The notes: generated by a model from the letters alone, not told the origin. Shown: positions 29,077-57,016, counted from the stretch's first letter. The stretch is 64,000 bases of DNA from a virus (IMGVR_UViG_3300028805_000037:96001-160000), one strand, 5' to 3'. Translations and numbers: made by a program.

Positions 29077-29568
29077 TTATATTTCAATGCCTAATAACTT
29101 TTTATATTGATTTTTGAATAAAATTGATTCTTGGTCAGTTTGCTTTGATATTTTATGATAAAAACTAGACACACAACAATGGACTGCCTGTCTACTTACA
29201 CCTAATAACTTTGCAATTTGACTATATGATTTCCTTTGAATTATATATGATAACACTAACTTTTGATGTTCATTAGTATATTTATCTATATAATTTAAAA
29301 TATTTATTAGTAAATATCTATTTCTATCTAGATCTGTCATATATTTTTTTATTTTCATTTGTACTTTCTGAAGCTCTCTACATATAAAACTTTGCTCCAT
29401 ATCATATAATATACCTAATTGTGTTTGATTTTTTTGAGAAGTTCTGTTATCTATTAAATGTTTATACCATGTAAATGTTTTTTTATCAAAGTAAAATAAA
29501 AACATTACTTCAAGTATATCAGAACTATTAGAAATATTCTCAACAGCTTGTTTGAACTCAGAAAACAT
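29077..29568 (-). CDS. Sigma-70 region-4-like HTH transcription regulator (possibly two HTHs)
   Basis: HQKLVLSYIIQRKSYSQIAKLLGVSRQAV; a second weaker QTQLGILYDMEQSFICR. Confidence 0.6.
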   Translation of the reverse strand: MFSEFKQAVENISNSSDILEVMFLFYFDKKTFTWYKHLIDNRTSQKNQTQLGILYDMEQSFICRELQKVQMKIKKYMTDLDRNRYLLINILNYIDKYTNEHQKLVLSYIIQRKSYSQIAKLLGVSRQAVHCCVSSFYHKISKQTDQESILFKNQYKKLLGIEI

Positions 29569-29577
29569 AAGCTCTCC

Positions 29578-30138
29578 TTACTCATCAATGTTTTGAATAT
29601 CTAATATACTTGTTTTAATTTGGATTGTGTTTTGCCCCATATCAACTTCTAATGATACACGAGTACCGCTGACATCTACTACTTTAGCATTTAACCCATA
29701 GAAAGCACCAGAATTTATACGGACAGTTGCTCCTTGTTGAAATACTACTTCTTTCTTTTTAGCATTATACTTATAAGCAACTTCTAAAGCTTGCTTAACT
29801 TCATGCTCAAAAACCATACCTTTTAAAATTTGAGCACCATAAATATAATTAATTCTACTTTCTATTTCTTTTATATTTGTACTTTGTGGTCTAATTGCTA
29901 TAAAGCCATATGTAAAATAGTTTGGTTTATCAATTGTTATTATTTGATTACTTCTTTCTTGCAAACGCTTCTTCTCTAAATGTGTTGGAAGCCACAAAAA
30001 ATTATCATTATCATATGCCTTCAATAAAGTGTTTATTTGACTTAACTTAACAAACGAATAAAAGTTTATAATATACCAACGATAATCTGAAACAGTTACT
30101 TGAGGGATTCTTTTAAATACTTCTGCGATAGTCCACAT
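29578..30138 (-). CDS. nusG: NusG-family transcription elongation/antitermination factor (NGN plus KOW)
   Basis: WYII..LWLPT..KPNYFTYGFI (NGN-like); FQQGATVRINSGAFYGLNAKVVDV..VSLEVDM (KOW). Confidence 0.8.
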   Translation of the reverse strand: MWTIAEVFKRIPQVTVSDYRWYIINFYSFVKLSQINTLLKAYDNDNFLWLPTHLEKKRLQERSNQIITIDKPNYFTYGFIAIRPQSTNIKEIESRINYIYGAQILKGMVFEHEVKQALEVAYKYNAKKKEVVFQQGATVRINSGAFYGLNAKVVDVSGTRVSLEVDMGQNTIQIKTSILDIQNIDE

Positions 30139-36392: not shown

Positions 36393-36421
36393 ATTATATA
36401 TAAATAATCTCATTTTGTCAA
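36393..36421 (-). promoter_or_regulatory. Sigma70-type promoter driving the sbcC C-half and polA
   Basis: Perfect TTGACA-17-TATAAT, back-to-back with motif copy 6. Confidence 0.8.
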
Positions 36422-41125: not shown

Positions 41126-41154
41126 TTCCCTTACCATATAATATAGTAAGGGAA
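41126..41154 (-). terminator. Intra-operon hairpin/terminator between the SSB-like gene and recA
   Basis: TTCCCTTAC..GTAAGGGAA stem followed by TTTT on the minus strand. Confidence 0.55.
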
Positions 41155-42666: not shown

Positions 42667-43182
42667 TTATTTAATATTCTCATTATATAATATCTTTTTT
42701 AAATTGTCAAGTATTTGATTATATTTATCAAAATTAATTTCTACTTTATTTATAATAATATCTTCTAAATATAAATCAAACAATTGCATACAATACATAC
42801 AGGAGTTCATTTTACTTGGATAAGCTTTAATATAATTATAAAACAATTCTGAACTATCTTTTAATAAACTTTGAAAAAAATCAATAGGTTTTTTATATTG
42901 TGTAGTTAATTTATATTTTAAAAATGTAGTTCCTAATTCTTGTTTTATTTCATAAATAGGCTTCTTTTCCATAAACGAAATTAATGTTAAAGCATCTCCA
43001 GACTTTTTACAAGTAAAACAATAAAATGAATTTGTCTTAGGATATATTGTAAGATTAGGTGTATTTTTATCATTGTGAAATGGACATAAACAAACATATC
43101 TATCACCAGACTCTTTTAAATCAAAGTTATAGTGTTTAAAAATTGAAACTATATCTAATTGTGGTAAACTAGAAAGTTGCAC
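42667..43182 (-). CDS. Stand-alone primase CHC2 zinc-finger protein
   Basis: CPFHNDKNTPNL..FYCFTC..GDALTLI. Confidence 0.85.
   Translation of the reverse strand: MQLSSLPQLDIVSIFKHYNFDLKESGDRYVCLCPFHNDKNTPNLTIYPKTNSFYCFTCKKSGDALTLISFMEKKPIYEIKQELGTTFLKYKLTTQYKKPIDFFQSLLKDSSELFYNYIKAYPSKMNSCMYCMQLFDLYLEDIIINKVEINFDKYNQILDNLKKILYNENIK
42682..42710 (-). promoter_or_regulatory. Sigma70-type promoter embedded in the 3' end of the Zn-finger gene
   Basis: Perfect TTGACA-17-TATAAT. Confidence 0.75.
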
Positions 43183-45468: not shown

Positions 45469-45813
45469 TCACTTATTTAGCTTATCTAGAAAGCATGCTT
45501 TTAATAATATAAGATAATTAATACTGTCACCAATCTTCTCATTTAACAAATCTTTAGTAGGTAATTGTCCAGTCTTTTCAAAACGTTTAACAATATCATA
45601 AACACTTACAATATGTTTATTCATCATACCAGCTAAAGCATATACATTAGTACAATCTAGTAGCTTAGCTGCTTCATTAAAATTATGTAGTTTATCTACA
45701 TCAGTTGAGTATTCTTTTGATTTACTCATTAAAATTGTATTTATACTATTTATACAATCTTCTACAACTTTATTAAAATCATGTGCATTCATTTTTAAAT
45801 CTCCTTTAACCAA
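45469..45813 (-). CDS. Nucleotide-modification-associated/dNTP pyrophosphohydrolase-like small protein
   Basis: KSKEY..DKLHNF..KH..EKIGDSINYLILL pattern. Confidence 0.5.
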   Translation of the reverse strand: MVKGDLKMNAHDFNKVVEDCINSINTILMSKSKEYSTDVDKLHNFNEAAKLLDCTNVYALAGMMNKHIVSVYDIVKRFEKTGQLPTKDLLNEKIGDSINYLILLKACFLDKLNK

Positions 45814-47024
45814 TCTTCTGCGTCTTCAACTGTCCAAAATATCTTATAATTAAGTTTATTCTTCTTAAAACATTCAAGCTTTCTCACATCTAAATCTGTC
45901 CATACATATATTGCATTTTTATAAAACTTTGTATTTTTACTTTCATATAAATTTAATATTTTCTTATGCTCTATACTATCTTTATTAAAACTTCCTAAAC
46001 ATCTGTCATGATACCAGCCATGAGTCCAATGTCCATTGTATTCTATATACAGGTCTAAGCTCTTAATGTAAAAGTCACAAGCAAAAGGATATAAATCACT
46101 TTTATATTGTCTAATAATATCACTTTTGTTAAACTTTGTCAAGAGTAGACTGTATATTTTCTCTTCAGATTTAGATTTATTATATGAATTATTTTTACGC
46201 AATGTTGCATTACGTTTAGATACAATATTAAATTTATTTAATTGATATTGTTTTTTCCACACATCTGTTTTTGCATAATTATCGACACCATATTTTTTAA
46301 TACAAGTATCTTTTAATTTAACAACACAAGCTTTTAATTTCATAGGATTATCAACATTAAATCTTTCAATATTAGTACGTTTTACCTTATCTTTGCACTC
46401 TTTAGTTTTACTATAATTATCAACACCATATTTTTGTTTATATGTATTTTTACTATGTTCTAAAATAATAGGTTTTTTTAATTTATAATCTTCAGATTGT
46501 GAATAATATTCAACACCATATTTTTGTTTACAAGCTTTCTTCATCTTATCTTGTATAATATTTATTTTTTGTTTATAGTCATTTGACTTACTATAATTAT
46601 CTACACCATATTTTTTCAGTAATGTAGCCTTTACTTTTAATCTAATATCTTTCTGTTTATCTTGTATAGTCTTTTTGTATATATCAGTTTTACTAAAAGT
46701 AGCAACACCATATTTCTTTAAGCAAGTTTGTTTACACCTTTCTTTTGTTGTAGGTAAACTTTGGTTATATATACCTGCACACTTTAAACTACAAAAAGTA
46801 CTATAGTAATTCTTTTTATAGTTATAATTAATCACTTTTTTACAATTTTTACAAATGAAAATTTTATCTAGTGCTATATTATTATTTAAACGATAGCATA
46901 ATTCTACAAAACTTAAATTATATTTATGTAAAACATCTTTAATTTCTTGATTTAAAAATTTAGATTCTAATAATTTATATCTACAATTTTTATGAGATTT
47001 AATATATTCTAATAAATGTTGCAT
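45795..47024 (-). CDS. Putative homing endonuclease, paralog of 12122-13357
   Basis: Same architecture: ELCYRL, CxxC..FCSxxC, KKYGVDNY repeats, YPFACDFYI..LYIEYNGHWTH, WTDLDVRKLECFKKN. Confidence 0.8.
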   Translation of the reverse strand: MQHLLEYIKSHKNCRYKLLESKFLNQEIKDVLHKYNLSFVELCYRLNNNIALDKIFICKNCKKVINYNYKKNYYSTFCSLKCAGIYNQSLPTTKERCKQTCLKKYGVATFSKTDIYKKTIQDKQKDIRLKVKATLLKKYGVDNYSKSNDYKQKINIIQDKMKKACKQKYGVEYYSQSEDYKLKKPIILEHSKNTYKQKYGVDNYSKTKECKDKVKRTNIERFNVDNPMKLKACVVKLKDTCIKKYGVDNYAKTDVWKKQYQLNKFNIVSKRNATLRKNNSYNKSKSEEKIYSLLLTKFNKSDIIRQYKSDLYPFACDFYIKSLDLYIEYNGHWTHGWYHDRCLGSFNKDSIEHKKILNLYESKNTKFYKNAIYVWTDLDVRKLECFKKNKLNYKIFWTVEDAEDWLKEI

Positions 47025-48200: not shown

Positions 48201-48980
48201 TCAAACCTCTATAATTAAATTTGGATTAAAATTCAAATTACATTCTCCATAAACAGAACTTCTGTATCCATAAGGATTACATACAACTCTTGTATTACCA
48301 ATCATAAAATCACTACTTGCATGTGTATGACCTGATATAACTAATGATAAATTCTTTTTCTTTTCAATAAACTTTGTTAAATCTGATGTAAAAGAAGCAT
48401 TTAAACTATTTGTAAAATACTTCGGATCAATTTGTAAAGGACTTACACAATGGTGTGTAATCAACACACACTTTTTATTTTTAAATTTTCTAAGTGTTTG
48501 TTTAATAAAGCTATATGACTCTTTAAACATATTTAAATAATGGTGTGGTTTAAGGCTTACAATTTTATCGCCTTCAAGTATCTTACCCCATCTAAAATCA
48601 TTTAAACCTTTTTCTGCAATTCGCATATTACTATTAACTGTACCATTATATTTATAGTCTGTATATAGACAACAGCCTATAAATACAATATCATTTATAA
48701 TTTTATATTGATTATTTAAGTATGAAATATCTGACTCTAAAGGAAAAGCATTACTATATATTTGTTGCAACTGTTGAATTGGTAAACCTAAATGATTATA
48801 AACTAAATGATTGCCGTGAACAAACAAACCATACTTAATATTATTCTTAATCCATTGAACTCCATTAACAGGGTCGCCACTAATATCCCCAGCTATTATT
48901 GTAAACGTATCATCATTATAATTCAAAGGATATCTATCATTTATATCTTCATGAATATCTGATATCACACGTATTTTCAC
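48201..48980 (-). CDS. Calcineurin-like metallophosphoesterase
   Basis: SDIH, AGDI, GNH, THH, SGHTH, CNPYGY. Confidence 0.9.
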   Translation of the reverse strand: MKIRVISDIHEDINDRYPLNYNDDTFTIIAGDISGDPVNGVQWIKNNIKYGLFVHGNHLVYNHLGLPIQQLQQIYSNAFPLESDISYLNNQYKIINDIVFIGCCLYTDYKYNGTVNSNMRIAEKGLNDFRWGKILEGDKIVSLKPHHYLNMFKESYSFIKQTLRKFKNKKCVLITHHCVSPLQIDPKYFTNSLNASFTSDLTKFIEKKKNLSLVISGHTHASSDFMIGNTRVVCNPYGYRSSVYGECNLNFNPNLIIEV

Positions 48981-48997
48981 AGAGTTCTCCTAACAGA

Positions 48998-49031
48998 TAA
49001 GGCTATAGATTTAATTTATTCTATAGCCTTA
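48998..49031. terminator. 12-bp intergenic hairpin
   Basis: TAAGGCTATAGA..TCTATAGCCTTA; no clear U-tract on the minus strand. Confidence 0.5.
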
Positions 49032-49050
49032 AATTTATTGAATTTTCAAG

Positions 49051-49353
49051 TTATTTTTTAGATTTCTTTTTAGAAGACTTTTTAGATTTCTTAACGTTTT
49101 CTAATTTAATACATGCATCTAATTTACATTGCAAATCATTTTTTATTCCAGTTAATTTATAAATTTCTTCTTTTAAGTTTTCATTTTCATTTTTTAATTT
49201 TTCATTATCTTCTATAATAAGTTCGTTAAGACAAGTCAATGTTTTAGAGATTTTTTCTAAAGCAATATTACTTTGAATTGTGTTGTTAAGGATAGTTTCT
49301 AATGCTCTAATTTTCTTTTTACCAAATAAATCCATTTCAATTCTCCTTTCCAT
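49051..49353 (-). CDS. Coiled-coil protein, first gene of the leftward early arm (likely start MDLFG at 49335)
   Basis: AAGGAG before the second Met; promoter upstream. Confidence 0.65.
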   Translation of the reverse strand: MERRIEMDLFGKKKIRALETILNNTIQSNIALEKISKTLTCLNELIIEDNEKLKNENENLKEEIYKLTGIKNDLQCKLDACIKLENVKKSKKSSKKKSKK

Positions 49354-49367
49354 ATAAATTTCTTAAG

Positions 49368-49396
49368 ATTATACTAAATTTTATTTTAAATGTCAA
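49368..49396 (-). promoter_or_regulatory. Sigma70-type promoter
   Basis: Perfect TTGACA-17-TATAAT. Confidence 0.8.
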
Positions 49397-49491
49397 GACT
49401 TTAAGATAGGACTTAAATTTGTTAATTTGGGATTTTTTAAATAAACTTAATTTCAAATATTTTTTATTTCCCACAGCTTTCTTTTTTCTTG

Positions 49492-49777
49492 AAAAAGAAA
49501 AAAGAAATTAAAGTGAAGTTATACTTAAACTTTAATTTACTAATGTCCTAAGTTAACGTGGTTAGCTTCTTCTGTTTCTAGGTATATTAAGCTAATGAAT
49601 AACCATCAGTATTAGGGCTTCCCTCAATTATACAAAGGAAGTTGCATACTATATACTTACTAGTATATACATTTGTACGTTGTATACTTCCTATTTCCCA
49701 ACGCTGTAGTAGTGAGCAGGAGCTTTATCATTCCTGATATTATAGTCGTAGACACTACTAGCAGATTTATCCTACGG
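49492..49777 (-). ncRNA. Candidate structured non-coding RNA (about 285 nt)
   Basis: No called ORF; higher GC than flanks; own promoter; several nested stems; terminator-like hairpin plus U-tract. Confidence 0.6.
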
Positions 49778-49782
49778 TACGT

Positions 49783-49811
49783 ATTATAATATAAAAGTAA
49801 ATAAATGTCAA
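49783..49811 (-). promoter_or_regulatory. Sigma70-type promoter for the candidate ncRNA
   Basis: Perfect TTGACA-17-TATAAT. Confidence 0.8.
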
Positions 49812-49835
49812 GTAGTTTTTTATAAATTTATTTAC

Positions 49836-49856
49836 CCTTGACATTTATATCATAAT
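49836..49856 (+). promoter_or_regulatory. Phage-specific motif copy 7 (CCTTGACA-TTTA-TATCATAAT), head of the tail-fibre/lysis arm
   Basis: Identical to copy 1. Confidence 0.8.
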
Positions 49857-49894
49857 CCTTTTATTTTTAATAGTATTTATATTATTTAAAAGAG

Positions 49895-50206
49895 GTGTTT
49901 TTTATGGCAAATATTGCATATGTACCAGTAACAAAAGACTGGACACTAGTAACAGACTTAATAGGCAATGGGTTTTCTTTTGATTCAAGTACTTTATACG
50001 TTATTGAGGCAAGAGGTTTAGGTGATGTATTACTTTTAGATTCAGATACAGAACCTGCCACAGATAGTTACAGTGGCATAAAGTTAGATGGTGCTGGTTA
50101 TAAAATTGCAAAATATACTCCGACAGATAGCACAAATTTATATATTAGATTGAACCGTAATTCATTAGAATCAGGAATTAATATTAGTACAGAAGAAGGA
50201 GAATAA
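49895..50206 (+). CDS. Small beta-rich structural protein (likely start MANIA at 49904)
   Basis: GAGGTG RBS. Confidence 0.6.
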   Translation: MFFMANIAYVPVTKDWTLVTDLIGNGFSFDSSTLYVIEARGLGDVLLLDSDTEPATDSYSGIKLDGAGYKIAKYTPTDSTNLYIRLNRNSLESGINISTEEGE

Positions 50207-50207
50207 T

Positions 50208-52544
50208 ATGAGTATAAAAATAGTATCACCTAATATAGTTTATTTGGGTTCTGCAAAAGCTCCTAGTGGTTCTGGTGGTAGTGGTAAAGTAGAAACATTA
50301 AACTATTTTCAAGAAACAGAACCTACAAACCCACAAGATGGGCAAACATGGTTTAATACAGCAGATAGTAAAATATACACTTATAAAGATGGACAATGGG
50401 ATGAAGGTAAAACACCTACCATTGGAACATTTTATTTATATGATAATAAATATTATACTTATAATGGAACGACACTTGTAGAAAGTGATTTAAACATATA
50501 CCAATTAAAAAGTAATATAAGCCAAGATTATACTGAAACAAGCCAAGAAAAATATCCATCAAGTAAAGCATTAAGTGATGCACAAAAAACCAATGTAAAA
50601 TCCGTTAATTTTAAAACACCTGTCAATGATGGTAATGTATTAATAACGCAAGTAGCTACGGCAGAAAATTTAGTTTCACCGGACAATATTAATGATACTG
50701 CATATATATTATTTAGAACAGCAGGTGGAACAAAAAGTATAAGTGATGGACCTGCAACATTAATGAAGATAGCAGGTAATGTAATAAACCCAAGAAGAAG
50801 TTTAAATAACATAGATACTACACATAACGAAACTACAAGAATAAATGCAAGTATAGATGCAACAATATTTGGTACAGCAGTAAATAATGTAAGTGGTGAT
50901 TATACATTTACATTTGATGGAACAGATTGGAGTTATGATAGTAATGTAGTTAATTTAGAAGATTATGGTATTACATTAAGTGCTACTGCATTAAATGGAG
51001 ATAGTTTTGTAGTAAGTTACACTTATGATAATACAGGCGAAGAAGTTTCAGAATCTGCAACAGCCACATACAATGCAGTAGATAGATTAACAATAGCAGT
51101 AAATGAAACAATATTTGCACAAAAAGTAAATAATGAAATAGGTACATATTCATTTTTATATCAAGGTGCTGTATGGATGAATAATGAAGCTATAGTAAAT
51201 ATAAGTGAATATGGTATAACTATTACAGGAACACCACAAACAGGTGATACAATTACAATAACATATAATGGTGATATGCAAGTTGCAACACCTACAAGTT
51301 TTCAAGCAAGTGGCTTTAACCAATTTAATCCTGCCAATGTATTAAGTGGATATACAATAAATGAAAATGGTGAAATTGTAGCAAGTGCAGGTAGTTATGT
51401 TGCATATATACATGCAGTTGGTGGACTTGAAAACAATTACGGTAACAGGCATGGTGATTATACAATATACGATAACAACACAACAGGAACATTGGTAAGG
51501 GTTGGGTATAGTGCAACAATACCTACAACATCAAGCACTATTACATTAAGTGGCAATGATGGAATAGAAGTAGTAAATGATACATCAATATTACCTGCTA
51601 ATAAATTGCAATGGATAACATTCCCAAAAGATGGATATATATGTGTAGCATTAACAGACATAACAAAGTTATGTGTACATCCTACTTGGAGTAATTATAA
51701 AGACCAAGATTATACAGAATATGTTGCACCAAGTGTAATCAATATACCTACAACAGGTTATGATATTTCAGATCCAACACAAACACAAGTATCATTAAAT
51801 TGTGCAAACTATTTTGGTAAAGTAGGTAATGTATTTGATGAAATATTCTTAGAAGATAATAGATATGTAAACAGAATAGGAAGATATGCATATAGTCAAG
51901 CGAACTTAGATACAGTTATAGAATTAGGTGTAGATTATATTTATGATAGTAATTACATTTATTATGTATTACCTACACCGATAACTTATGTTGTAGATAT
52001 ACCAAACAATGGAAAATATACAGTAAACGATTTCGGCACAGAAGAGTTTGTAGGTACAACAGTGGCAGTACTTGCAAATACATTGTATGGTAATAACTTA
52101 GTAGATAAATTAAGAACAGACGTATTAACAAAATCTGCACAAAGTTTAAGCCAAGAACAGAAAGAGCAAGTATGGCAAAATTTAGGTTTACAACCGATAT
52201 ACAACCATGTAAATACATTAGAAGCAAATGGTACAGTAACGATAAATTTAGTTCCTACAAAACAAGTATACGAACTTACACCAACATCAAATACTACATT
52301 AGTATTTAATACAGACAATTTAGTTGAGTTTAATGCACAAGACAGTGATGTAGAAATAGAATTTACATTATATATAAAAATGGTAGATGCACAACAAGCA
52401 TGGGAAATAACATTTCCTGACACTGTAGTATGGGGTAACACTTCACCAACAATGACAGCAATGGCAAATTATAAATTTAGTTTCTGTAAACCTAAAGGTA
52501 GTAATGTATGGATAGGTAATCAAATGTACAGTTGGGTTGAATAA
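50208..52544 (+). CDS. Tail fibre/structural protein with internal tandem repeat
   Basis: T/N/G-rich; two repeats (IF..VNN..G.Y.F...G..W....VN..EYGIT.....GD....Y); C-terminal ITFPDTVVW..SPT domain. Confidence 0.7.
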   Translation: MSIKIVSPNIVYLGSAKAPSGSGGSGKVETLNYFQETEPTNPQDGQTWFNTADSKIYTYKDGQWDEGKTPTIGTFYLYDNKYYTYNGTTLVESDLNIYQLKSNISQDYTETSQEKYPSSKALSDAQKTNVKSVNFKTPVNDGNVLITQVATAENLVSPDNINDTAYILFRTAGGTKSISDGPATLMKIAGNVINPRRSLNNIDTTHNETTRINASIDATIFGTAVNNVSGDYTFTFDGTDWSYDSNVVNLEDYGITLSATALNGDSFVVSYTYDNTGEEVSESATATYNAVDRLTIAVNETIFAQKVNNEIGTYSFLYQGAVWMNNEAIVNISEYGITITGTPQTGDTITITYNGDMQVATPTSFQASGFNQFNPANVLSGYTINENGEIVASAGSYVAYIHAVGGLENNYGNRHGDYTIYDNNTTGTLVRVGYSATIPTTSSTITLSGNDGIEVVNDTSILPANKLQWITFPKDGYICVALTDITKLCVHPTWSNYKDQDYTEYVAPSVINIPTTGYDISDPTQTQVSLNCANYFGKVGNVFDEIFLEDNRYVNRIGRYAYSQANLDTVIELGVDYIYDSNYIYYVLPTPITYVVDIPNNGKYTVNDFGTEEFVGTTVAVLANTLYGNNLVDKLRTDVLTKSAQSLSQEQKEQVWQNLGLQPIYNHVNTLEANGTVTINLVPTKQVYELTPTSNTTLVFNTDNLVEFNAQDSDVEIEFTLYIKMVDAQQAWEITFPDTVVWGNTSPTMTAMANYKFSFCKPKGSNVWIGNQMYSWVE

Positions 52545-56945: not shown

Positions 56946-57016
56946 AGCGGGATAGTGTAAAGGTAACATTTTGGGTTCATATCCCAAAGCTGAGAGTTCA
57001 ATTCTCTCTCCCGCAA
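56946..57016 (+). tRNA. tRNA-Met(CAT), initiator-like
   Basis: Full cloverleaf AGCGGGA/TCCCGCA; anticodon stem TTGGG-TTCATAT-CCCAA with three G:C pairs; 1:72 mismatch; T-arm GAGAG-TTCAATT-CTCTC; no encoded CCA. Confidence 0.9.

What the first reader, a model, noticed from the sequence alone, without database searches (positions are those of the whole stretch)
49492..49811. Stand-alone structured ncRNA between the divergent genome arms
Seen on the minus strand: a perfect sigma70 promoter (49811-49783), then about 285 nt without a called ORF. Stems are CTG-C-TAGTAGTG/CACTACTACAG enclosing CAGGA/TCCTG; TTGGG/CCTAA enclosing AGGAAGT/ACTTCCT, TATATACT/AGTATATA and ACGT/ATGT; and TTAGCTT/AAGCTAA. 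It ends in AAATTAAAGT..ACTTTAATTT plus a U-rich tract. Several pairs work only as G-U on the minus strand. TTCCTT can pair with either upstream AGGAA or downstream GAGGGAA, a possible switch. The downstream gene has its own promoter, so this is not simply its 5' UTR. I do not recognise it as tRNA, tmRNA, RNase P or SRP. Inference: an undescribed phage RNA (antitermination element for the NusG paralog, protein decoy, or replication-origin RNA).
Basis: partly seen in the sequence, partly recalled or inferred. Interest (0 to 1): 0.75.

Follow-up and report, generated by a model that had tools for sequence, protein, structure and literature searches.

The report
Conserved structured RNA of rumen jumbo phages
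A 300-kb gut phage and its relatives carry a strongly conserved, promoter-driven, non-coding stretch of about 320 bases that folds into a multi-helix RNA matching no described family; it probably acts on early transcription, but its function is untested.

Summary
The element is real and larger than reported. A perfect TTGACA-17-TATAAT promoter (49811-49783, minus strand) is followed by a non-coding block, 49777-49456.

- **Relatives:** I found it in 15 distinct metagenomic phage loci: 13 close ("type A", 92-99% identical) and 2 divergent ("type B", about 420 nt).
- **Conservation:** The block is better conserved than the flanking genes (92-95% against 72-89% nucleotide identity).
- **Structure:** Compensatory changes support nine helices, including a 5' pseudoknot. 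98.8% of cells pair, and 30 of 70 pairs show double changes, against 0 of 500 shuffles.
- **Strand:** G-U pairs place the fold on the promoter strand.
Three fail (TTGGG/CCTAA, AGGAAGT/ACTTCCT, ACGT/ATGT). The proposed TTCCTT switch is not supported; TTCCTT pairs downstream.
- **Known families:** Rfam gives no match. No copy was found in Bacillus phage G, elsewhere in IMG/VR, or in GTDB genomes.
- **3' end:** The terminator-like hairpin is weak, and the U tract is itself one arm of a covarying helix. The 3' end is therefore undefined and read-through is likely.

Best guess (about 0.4): a cis-acting leader RNA at the head of the roughly 50-kb replication arm, working like the RNA antiterminators conAn2, put or EAR. 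Rivals are a stand-alone RNA, an origin RNA and a riboswitch. The scan noted this same stretch once before (e1-5525360), but not on other DNA.

The parts
49783..49811 (-). Consensus host-type (sigma70/sigmaA) promoter of the RNA, TTGACA-17-TATAAT
   Evidence: scores it 12/12. It is conserved in all 13 type-A loci. Type B has TTGACA-17-TATACT at the same distance from the RNA start. It is one of 14 perfect copies in the 300-kb genome.
49456..49777 (-). Conserved non-coding RNA block, about 322 nt; predicted 5' end near 49776-49775
   Evidence: Conservation starts 6-7 nt after the -10 box and ends near 49456. Identity to relatives is 92-99%, against 72-89% for neighbouring genes. The covariance model scores 365-413 bits on type A and 92-96 bits on type B.
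49747..49776 (-). P0: CGUAGG (49776-49771) pairs with UCUACG (49752-49747), forming a pseudoknot with P1
   Evidence: all 15 copies pair, with one compensatory change (G-C to A-U) and one G-U to G-C change in type B. This helix was not part of the model that made the alignment.
49704..49764 (-). P1 (49764-49753 with 49714-49704) enclosing P1a (CAGGA 49736-49732 with UCCUG 49721-49717) and the conserved loop CUAYGAC..AAUAU
   Evidence: P1 has 5 pairs with double changes and P1a has 2. These include U-A to C-G in L006/L009 and C-G to A-U in L019.
49678..49703 (-). P2 hairpin CGUUG/CAACG presenting the loop GGAAAUAGGAAGUAUA (first GGAAAUA..GUAU module)
Evidence: In type B it reads CAUAC[GGAAAUAAAGC]GUAUG, so 3 of 5 pairs are changed on both sides and all copies pair.
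49650..49669 (-). P3 hairpin UAUAUAC/GUAUAUA
   Evidence: Invariant in type A. In type B it is extended and changed, with 3 double changes and a 42-nt insertion in the loop.
49618..49641 (-).
   Evidence: The U-A/C-G covariation splits type A 5 to 7. In type B the helix is UCCAGG/CCUGGA, so 6 of 9 pairs show double changes and all copies pair.
49596..49617 (-). Most conserved unpaired core, CCCUAAUACUGAUGGUUAUUCA
   Evidence: The window and both type-B copies are identical here. Only 2 positions vary within type A.
49562..49595 (-). P5: UUAGCUU/AAGCUAA with a 20-nt loop AAUAUACCUAGAAACAGAAG
   Evidence: The stem is invariant in all 15 copies, so there is no covariation to judge it by. The first half of the loop is conserved in type B.
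49505..49538 (-).
   Evidence: Inverted repeat I17. A-U to G-U changes work only on this strand. Its energy is -2.4 to -6.2 kcal/mol. It is not called as a terminator, and its alignment in type B is uncertain.
49478..49507 (-). P7: 13-bp pyrimidine/purine helix UUUCUUUUUUCUU/AAGAAAAAAGAAA
   Evidence: Inverted repeat I6, 100% complementary. Energy is about -10 kcal/mol. Two compensatory pairs occur in L006/L009.
49457..49478 (-). Second GGGAAAUA module, part of a 22-nt imperfect direct repeat with 49684-49705
   Evidence: Direct repeat D1. Both copies change GGAAAU to GGUAAU in L006/L009 and both read CGGAAAUAAAG..GUAU in type B.
49368..49396 (-). Second perfect promoter, serving the first gene of the arm
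   Evidence: scores it 12/12. It is conserved in all relatives, while the 60-110-nt spacer before it is not.
49051..49353 (-). First gene of the arm: a coiled-coil protein with a Lys-rich tail (likely start ATG 49335, MDLF..)
   Evidence: The type-B orthologues are 257-277 aa and end in RGRP AT-hook repeats. The gene is always adjacent to the RNA.
49835..49856 (+). Divergent phage-specific promoter motif CCCTTGACA-N5-TATCATAAT, facing the tail-fibre arm
   Evidence: The genome has 9 CCCTTGACA sites; 8 show this compressed motif just upstream of genes, and the ninth (genome 13109, -) is a standard TTGACA-17-TATAAT promoter. This copy is conserved in all relatives, including type B.

Best explanation
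This is a previously undescribed family of structured phage RNA. It is about 322 nt in this phage and about 420 nt in divergent relatives.

**How it is made.** Host RNA polymerase would transcribe it from a consensus early promoter. That promoter sits at the very head of the leftward arm of roughly 50 kb, which holds replication genes followed by packaging genes.

**Fold.** The RNA starts with a 5' pseudoknot (P0/P1). Hairpins P2, P3 and P4 follow, then an invariant 22-nt single-stranded core, helix P5, and a weak hairpin plus a U/A helix at the 3' side. It also carries two copies of a GGAAAUA..GUAU module.

**Proposed mechanism.** No efficient terminator follows the RNA, so it is most likely the 5' portion of an early transcript. 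I propose that it acts in cis on the polymerase that makes it, as an RNA-based processive antiterminator or read-through element. In this it would work like conAn2 of Gram-positive conjugative plasmids, put of phage HK022, or EAR of Bacillus, possibly with a protein cofactor.

**Shown:** the promoter, the conservation, the fold, the strand, the position, and the lack of a strong terminator.

**Inferred:** that it is transcribed, that it acts in cis, and that it acts on polymerase.

I put the probability that this is a real functional structured RNA at about 0.85-0.9, and the cis-antitermination mechanism at about 0.4.
For: - **Promoter and RNA start:** the promoter is perfect and conserved, and conservation begins at the predicted transcript start.
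- **Conservation:** 15 distinct copies sit in the same gene order, and the block is more conserved than the flanking genes.
- **Covariation:** 30 of 70 pairs show double changes and 98.8% of cells pair. No shuffle of 500 reached this, and slid controls gave at most 4. Within type A alone there are 5 compensatory pairs and one disruptive change.
- **Strand:** the fold is 6 points better on the promoter strand.
- **No strong terminator:** the P6 hairpin is weak. The U tract is one arm of the covarying helix P7, so transcripts must extend past it. Type B has no canonical terminator before the second promoter.
- **Terminators to bypass:** canonical terminators do exist further down the same arm and strand, for example at 41154-41126. 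The scan found 12 against 3.6 expected.
- **Precedent (PMC8191782):** conAn2 elements are 260-600-bp RNA regions at the start of long operons of Gram-positive mobile elements. They act only in cis. In pLS20 the element is likewise followed by a promoter (P29) just before the next gene.
- **Possible cofactor:** a KOW protein matching a phage "transcription antiterminator" family lies on the same arm.
Against:
- A conserved perfect promoter lies between the RNA and the first gene, so the arm does not depend on this RNA's promoter. Further perfect promoters restart transcription along the arm at 42710, 36421 and 32770.
- The RNA is single-copy, and the other 13 perfect promoters have no such element.
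- The ConAn1 marker protein (PF17362) is absent from the genome, and the NGN domain of NusG is not detected.
- Single-sequence folding energy is not better than shuffles.
- Nearly all covariation comes from two lineage splits (type A against type B, and L006/L009 against the rest). The 15-sequence alignment was also fitted to the model's structure.
Confidence: 0.4

Rival explanations
1. It is a stand-alone, trans-acting early RNA, either terminated inefficiently or cut out of the transcript. It would work as a protein-binding scaffold or decoy. The two GGAAAUA..GUAU modules would bind two copies of one partner, for example the adjacent dimeric coiled-coil protein with a basic tail, or a host factor.
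For: - It has its own consensus promoter, and the next gene has a separate one.
- It is single-copy.
- Unpaired nucleotides are very strongly conserved, including a 22-nt core identical between type A and type B.
- The two modules evolve in concert.
- The basic coiled-coil gene is always adjacent.
Against: - No efficient terminator exists in either type.
- Adjacency is uninformative, because the whole neighbourhood keeps its gene order in all loci.
- No partner has been identified; Pfam and the protein atlas give nothing for the protein.
- No antisense target above chance was found in the phage genome.
Confidence: 0.27
2. It is an origin-associated RNA. Transcription from the promoter would activate or prime replication, by analogy with ColE1 RNA II or the promoter-dependent T4 origins. 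The purine tract at the 3' side would form a persistent RNA-DNA hybrid.
For: - It lies at the strand switch, where cumulative GC skew has its genome-wide minimum.
- It sits directly upstream of the replication module: an IstB/DnaC-like protein, DnaB, primase and DNA polymerase.
- The 3' side has a 13-bp polypyrimidine/polypurine helix and A-rich DNA.
- The next gene encodes an AT-hook or Lys-rich protein.
Against: - GC skew here simply follows gene orientation, and there are three other skew switches.
- No iterons or repeated boxes were found beyond the two modules.
- The strong constraint on the whole 5' fold, with strand-specific G-U pairs, is more than a primer would need.
- The 3' region differs greatly between type A and type B.
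Confidence: 0.15
3. It is a ligand-sensing leader (riboswitch-like). A conserved aptamer in the 5' 230 nt would control a variable expression platform (P6/P7), and so control read-through into the nucleotide and replication genes.
For: The 5' two-thirds are conserved while the 3' third varies between types. A hairpin plus U tract follows the conserved part. Downstream genes include a metallophosphoesterase and a dGTP-diphosphohydrolase-like protein.
Against: No known riboswitch class matches. A constitutive consensus promoter sits between the element and the genes. The hairpin is too weak to work as a switchable terminator.
Confidence: 0.07
4. It is a DNA-level element only, such as protein-binding sites or palindromes in a regulatory region, or it is conserved by chance with no RNA function.
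For: The compensatory changes that turn one Watson-Crick pair into another would also preserve DNA palindromes. Two promoters and a divergent phage-type promoter crowd the region.
Against: 6.5% of paired cells are G-U and work on one strand only. They include 5 G-U pairs that are invariant across type A, plus several A-U to G-U changes. Conservation starts exactly at the predicted transcript start. The nested and pseudoknotted long-range helices are not what DNA-binding sites look like.
Confidence: 0.06

Closest known systems
conAn2 RNA of the bipartite conAn antitermination system (pLS20 and other Gram-positive conjugative plasmids; PMC8191782)
   Same: It is a large (260-600 bp) non-coding region at the start of a very long co-directional operon of a mobile element in low-GC Gram-positive-type hosts. 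It contains several stem-loops and is followed by a promoter just before the next gene. It acts as RNA in cis, and a small protein gene lies adjacent.
   Different: The ConAn1 marker PF17362 is absent here. The order is RNA then protein, not protein then RNA. The RNA has its own promoter at its 5' end. There is no 16-bp GC-rich box or 20-bp terminal inverted repeat like those of pLS20. No functional test has been done here.
[quoted passage not shown]
   Same: They are structured RNAs just downstream of an early or operon promoter in a phage or Gram-positive operon, and act on the polymerase that transcribes them. From general knowledge, EAR contains a pseudoknot.
   Different: By my recollection put is about 70 nt with two stem-loops and EAR about 120 nt; PMC8191782 says only that both are much smaller than conAn2. 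This RNA is 320-420 nt with nine helices. No Rfam family, EAR included if it is in the library, matched. From general knowledge HK022 carries a put site for each of its two early operons, whereas this phage has a single copy.
Leader elements that recruit NusG paralogues (RfaH ops, LoaP leader hairpin; PMC7819879, PMC12691694 found, titles and abstracts only)
   Same: They sit in the 5' leader of long operons. A KOW-containing, antiterminator-like protein is encoded on the same arm.
   Different: From general knowledge, those recruitment sites are short (a 12-nt DNA element or one small hairpin). The NGN domain is not detectable in the phage protein. That protein sits at the early/late boundary, next to a sigma-like factor. 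Nothing ties it to this RNA.
ColE1 RNA II (replication primer RNA; general knowledge)
   Same: It is a promoter-driven, several-hundred-nt structured RNA upstream of the site where replication starts, and it has no ORF.
   Different: No conserved antisense RNA I-type promoter is seen; only a weak 9/12 match lies on the plus strand at 49629-49657. No origin has been mapped here. The 3' part is the least conserved.
phi29 pRNA and the T4 stable RNAs C and D (stand-alone phage RNAs; general knowledge)
   Same: They are phage-encoded, non-coding, promoter-driven stable RNAs from large or Gram-positive phages.
   Different: There is no Rfam match, and the size, fold and genome position differ. pRNA has a defined terminator and forms rings through loop-loop pairs, which are not evident here.

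Membership tests
Any Rfam 15 family (4227 models, including RNase P, tmRNA, SRP, 6S, riboswitches, ROOL, GOLLD) | Covariance-model score at or above the family's gathering threshold | tested here: not met
   The whole window gave only the tRNA at 56946. In 49300-49950 at E up to 10 there were only chance hits of 13-17 bits against thresholds of 62-97. The type-B loci gave none.
tRNA / tmRNA | Cloverleaf or tRNA-like domain detected by ARAGORN | tested here: not met
   the only tRNA is tRNA-Met at 56946-57016.
Independent sRNA gene | Own promoter at the 5' end | tested here: met
   conservation begins 6-7 nt after the -10 box.
Independent sRNA gene | Efficient intrinsic terminator at the 3' end | tested here: not met
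   No terminator is called in 48900-50400. P6 has an energy of -2.4 to -6.2 kcal/mol and a 12-14-nt loop. The U tract pairs in helix P7.
conAn bipartite antitermination system | ConAn1 processivity protein (Pfam pXO2-34, PF17362) encoded next to the RNA | tested here: not met
   Six-frame search of the 300-kb genome found no match at E up to 1. The adjacent protein has no Pfam family.
conAn bipartite antitermination system | Large non-coding RNA region at the start of a long operon that contains internal terminators | tested here: met
   The position is at the head of the minus-strand arm. Terminator-like sites lie on the same strand, for example at 41154.
conAn bipartite antitermination system | Read-through of terminators when the RNA is placed in cis | not testable with these tools
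   This needs a reporter assay.
NusG-paralogue-dependent leader (RfaH/LoaP type) | Cognate NGN+KOW paralogue in the same genome | tested here: inconclusive
   The protein at 29578-30138 has a KOW motif (E 1e-4) and matches phrog_6386 "transcription antiterminator" (E 7e-7). The NGN family PF02357 is not detected.
Riboswitch | Aptamer directly controlling the downstream ORF through an expression platform, with no intervening promoter | tested here: not met
   A perfect, conserved promoter lies between the element and the gene, and no riboswitch class matches.
6S-type polymerase-binding RNA | Long rod with a central open-promoter-like bubble | tested here: not met
   The covariation-supported fold is multi-branched with a pseudoknot, and there is no Rfam 6S match.
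ColE1-type primer RNA | Antisense regulator promoter on the opposite strand, and a mapped origin downstream | tested here: inconclusive
   Only a weak 9/12 plus-strand promoter-like site lies at 49629-49657. The cumulative GC-skew minimum falls at the locus but is confounded by gene orientation.

The most novel reading that the evidence does not exclude
The RNA is a new class of large, pseudoknotted, RNA-only device. Made first on infection, it would directly reprogram the host transcription complex, or prime replication at the origin, for a 300-kb phage. Its invariant 22-nt core and the paired GGAAAUA..GUAU modules would be the contact surfaces. On this reading it is mechanistically distinct from put, EAR and conAn2.
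Probability: 0.2. Interest if true: 0.8.

Novelty: new variant of a known kind. Interest (0 to 1): 0.6.

Why it matters
Jumbo phages of anaerobic gut bacteria are uncultured, and their early gene-expression programmes are unknown. This RNA is better conserved than the neighbouring proteins, carries its own consensus promoter, and sits at the pivot between the two genome arms. That makes it a concrete, testable handle on how such a phage starts its programme.

If it is a cis-acting antiterminator, it would extend the very short list of RNA-based processive antiterminators (put, EAR, conAn2) to jumbo phages. If it stands alone, it would be a new phage ribonucleoprotein RNA.

It also shows that comparative data can rescue an AU-rich RNA that a folding-energy test would dismiss.

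Tried and rejected
- **Folding energy against shuffles:** not significant on either strand or in the divergent copies. I treat this as a low-power test for AU-rich RNA, not as a refutation.
- **RNAalifold on type A alone:** it proposed a different 5' domain and a long-range 70-76/306-312 helix. Both are contradicted by the L019 and L006/L009 substitutions, so I rejected them.
- **Reader-like closing helix TTGGG/CCTAA and ACGT/ATGT (model R1):** mismatched in type B and 12 bits worse than model R2.
- **DNA similarity to GenBank phages:** no match.
- **IMG/VR, JGI-metagenome and GTDB pattern scans:** only close relatives or chance hits.
- **Covariance-model search** of the phage's own genome, Bacillus phage G, a 485-kb uncultured phage and a related IMG/VR fragment: no further copy.
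- **Relatives search:** not available for virus records.
- **More distant metallophosphoesterase neighbourhoods (43-45% identity):** different gene order and no RNA.
- **Antisense targets in the phage genome:** only low-complexity, chance-level matches.
- **Hammerhead and RNase P resemblances** (CUGAUGG, ACAGAA): the motifs are not conserved among copies and there are no Rfam hits.
- **Small-ORF reading:** rejected because of frame-breaking indels and unconserved open frames.
- **ConAn1 and the NGN domain:** absent.
- **Protein atlas on the neighbouring protein:** no usable hit.
- **Catalogue of 10,006 candidate viral structured RNAs (PMC10690425):** its supplementary files are not held, so I could not check whether this motif is listed there.

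Full report
**Setting.** Its portal protein is only 29% identical to that of Bacillus phage G, the nearest cultured phage. Minus-strand genes run leftward from 49353. They include a metallophosphoesterase, a resolvase-like protein, an IstB/DnaC-like protein, DnaB, primase, DNA polymerase, GroEL, terminase and portal. Plus-strand genes run rightward from 49895 and include a 1365-aa fibre-like protein. The finding lies in the gap between the two arms.

**The observation.**
- The minus strand carries TTGACA-17-TATAAT at 49811-49783. A second perfect promoter sits at 49396-49368, just before the first gene. Only 14 perfect copies exist in the genome, and most lie 20-60 nt from a ribosome-binding site. 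This one is 447 nt away.
- The quoted complementary segments are present in the sequence.
- Rfam gives nothing at the gathering thresholds, and nothing at E up to 10 beyond 13-17-bit noise. ARAGORN finds nothing here.
- The minimum free energy is not better than dinucleotide shuffles on either strand (z = -1.2 and -1.4).

**Relatives.**
- One IMG/VR contig carried the region.
- Homologues of the 100-aa downstream protein, followed by contig look-ups, gave 13 distinct "type A" copies in ENA, JGI, NCBI and Logan assemblies. One further copy came from a metagenome pattern scan.
- In all of them the divergent upstream gene and the 60-110-nt spacer downstream cannot be aligned, or vary. The block from 6-7 nt after the -10 box to about 49456 is 92-99% identical.
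- Against the window, the RNA block is 92-95% identical in loci whose four neighbouring genes are 72-89% identical at the nucleotide level.
- One-base indels and unconserved open frames exclude a peptide.
- Homologues of the metallophosphoesterase at 53-60% identity led to two loci, L039 and L040, with the same gene order and a 660-690-nt gap. The covariance model finds the RNA there at E of about 1e-20.
- These "type B" copies are about 420 nt. They have the same TTGACA-17 promoter at the same distance, the same divergent promoter motif and the same second promoter.
- No copy was found elsewhere in the phage's own genome, in phage G, in a 485-kb uncultured phage, in other IMG/VR contigs or in GTDB genomes.

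**Structure.**
- The compensatory changes are: U-A to C-G in P1 (L006/L009), C-G to A-U in CAGGA/UCCUG (L019), U-A/C-G in CUUCC/GGAAG, and two pairs in the U/A helix (L006/L009).
TTCCTT therefore pairs downstream, and no switch is supported.
- Type B breaks TTGGG/CCTAA and ACGT/ATGT. It reveals instead a local hairpin: CGUUG[GGAAAUA...]CAACG in type A and CAUAC[GGAAAUAAAGC]GUAUG in type B.
- On the 15-sequence alignment, 98.8% of cells pair and 30 of 70 pairs show changes on both sides. No shuffle of 500 matches this, and the slid controls give at most 4.
- A 5' helix, CGUAGG with UCUACG, was not in the model. It pairs in all 15 copies and has one compensatory change. It crosses P1, so it forms a pseudoknot.
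- G-U pairs make up 6.5% of paired cells. The same helices on the plus strand pair at only 92.8%, so the fold belongs to the promoter strand.
- Caveats: most covariation comes from two lineage splits, the alignment was fitted to the model, and P6 and P7 are poorly aligned in type B.

**Notable features.**
- The 22-nt segment CCCUAAUACUGAUGGUUAUUCA and the stem of P5 are identical between the window and type B; the P5 loop is conserved only in its first half.
- A 22-nt module containing GGGAAAUA occurs twice, at 49705-49684 and 49478-49457. Both copies change GGAAAU to GGUAAU in L006/L009, and both read CGGAAAUAAAG..GUAU in type B. This concerted change suggests a shared partner.

**The 3' end.**
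- The AAATTAAAGT hairpin has an energy of only -2.4 to -6.2 kcal/mol and a 12-14-nt loop. The scan that finds 12 canonical terminators elsewhere in the arm does not call it.
- The following U/C tract is the 5' arm of a 13-bp helix (about -10 kcal/mol) with two compensatory pairs. Transcripts must therefore often continue past it.
- Type B has no canonical terminator before the second promoter.
- The RNA is thus probably the 5' part of a longer early transcript, or it is released by processing.

**Function.** Nothing here is shown directly. I weighed four readings.
1. **Cis-acting leader that modifies the transcribing polymerase (about 0.4).**
   - It fits the position at the head of a long co-directional arm with internal terminators, and the lack of a terminator after the RNA.
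   - It also fits the precedent of conAn2. Those are 260-600-bp RNA regions at the start of long operons of Gram-positive conjugative plasmids. They work only in cis, and in pLS20 the element is also followed by a promoter before the next gene (PMC8191782).
   - Against it: the ConAn1 marker is absent, the RNA is single-copy, and restart promoters occur along the arm.
2. **Stand-alone scaffold or decoy RNA (about 0.27).** It fits the separate promoters and the paired modules, but not the missing terminator.
3. **Origin RNA (about 0.15).** It fits the strand switch, the cumulative GC-skew minimum and the adjacent replication genes. However, the skew follows gene orientation, and the 3' part is the least conserved.
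4. **Riboswitch (about 0.07).** It is disfavoured by the intervening promoter and the weak hairpin.

The protein at 29578-30138 has a KOW motif and matches a phage "transcription antiterminator" family, but no NGN domain is detected and no link to this RNA is seen.

**Novelty.** No described RNA family matches. The nearest analogues are functional, not homologous. I could not check the catalogue of 10,006 candidate viral structured RNAs (PMC10690425), because its supplementary files are not held. I rate this as a new family within the known kind of promoter-proximal structured RNAs of mobile elements. The scan noted this same stretch once before (e1-5525360), and no look-alike was noted in other genomes.

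Noticed in passing
window 49835-49856 (+); also 29072, 17078, 11114, 5671 (-) and three more copies outside the window: There is a phage-specific compressed promoter-like motif, CCCTTGACA-N4-5-TATCATA(A/T)T. Of 9 CCCTTGACA sites in the genome, 8 show it, each just upstream of a gene and mostly in the structural/late arm; the ninth (genome 13109, -) is a standard TTGACA-17-TATAAT promoter. The -35-like and -10-like boxes are only about 5-7 nt apart, so this is not a standard sigma70 promoter. The copy facing away from the RNA promoter is conserved in all 15 related loci.
   Followed up: partly
window 49051-49353 (-); L039:2645-3418; L040:2604-3437: The first gene after the RNA encodes a coiled-coil protein with a Lys-rich C-terminal tail; its likely true start is ATG 49335. 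In the divergent phages it is 257-277 aa and ends in RGRP AT-hook repeats. It has no Pfam or PHROG family.
   Followed up: partly
window 29077-30138 (-): A 186-aa protein has a KOW motif and matches phrog_6386 "transcription antiterminator". Next to it is a 163-aa protein with weak sigma70 region-4 HTH matches. The NGN domain is not detectable.
   Followed up: partly
genome positions 8142 (+) and 197934 (+), outside this window: Two other perfect TTGACA-17-TATAAT promoters are followed by more than 1 kb without an ORF led by a ribosome-binding site. These may be further non-coding transcripts.
   Followed up: no
window 45795-47024 (-) compared with L004, L010, L011, L017: A 409-aa homing-endonuclease-like gene (DUF7487) is present in this phage, in L005 and in L039. 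It is absent at the same place in several close relatives, which is a presence/absence pattern typical of homing.
   Followed up: no
window 41126-41154 (-): A canonical intergenic intrinsic terminator (13-bp stem followed by TTTT) lies inside the co-directional leftward arm, about 1.5 kb downstream of the perfect promoter at 42710 and upstream of the next one at 36421. The arm is therefore built of several transcription units.
   Followed up: no
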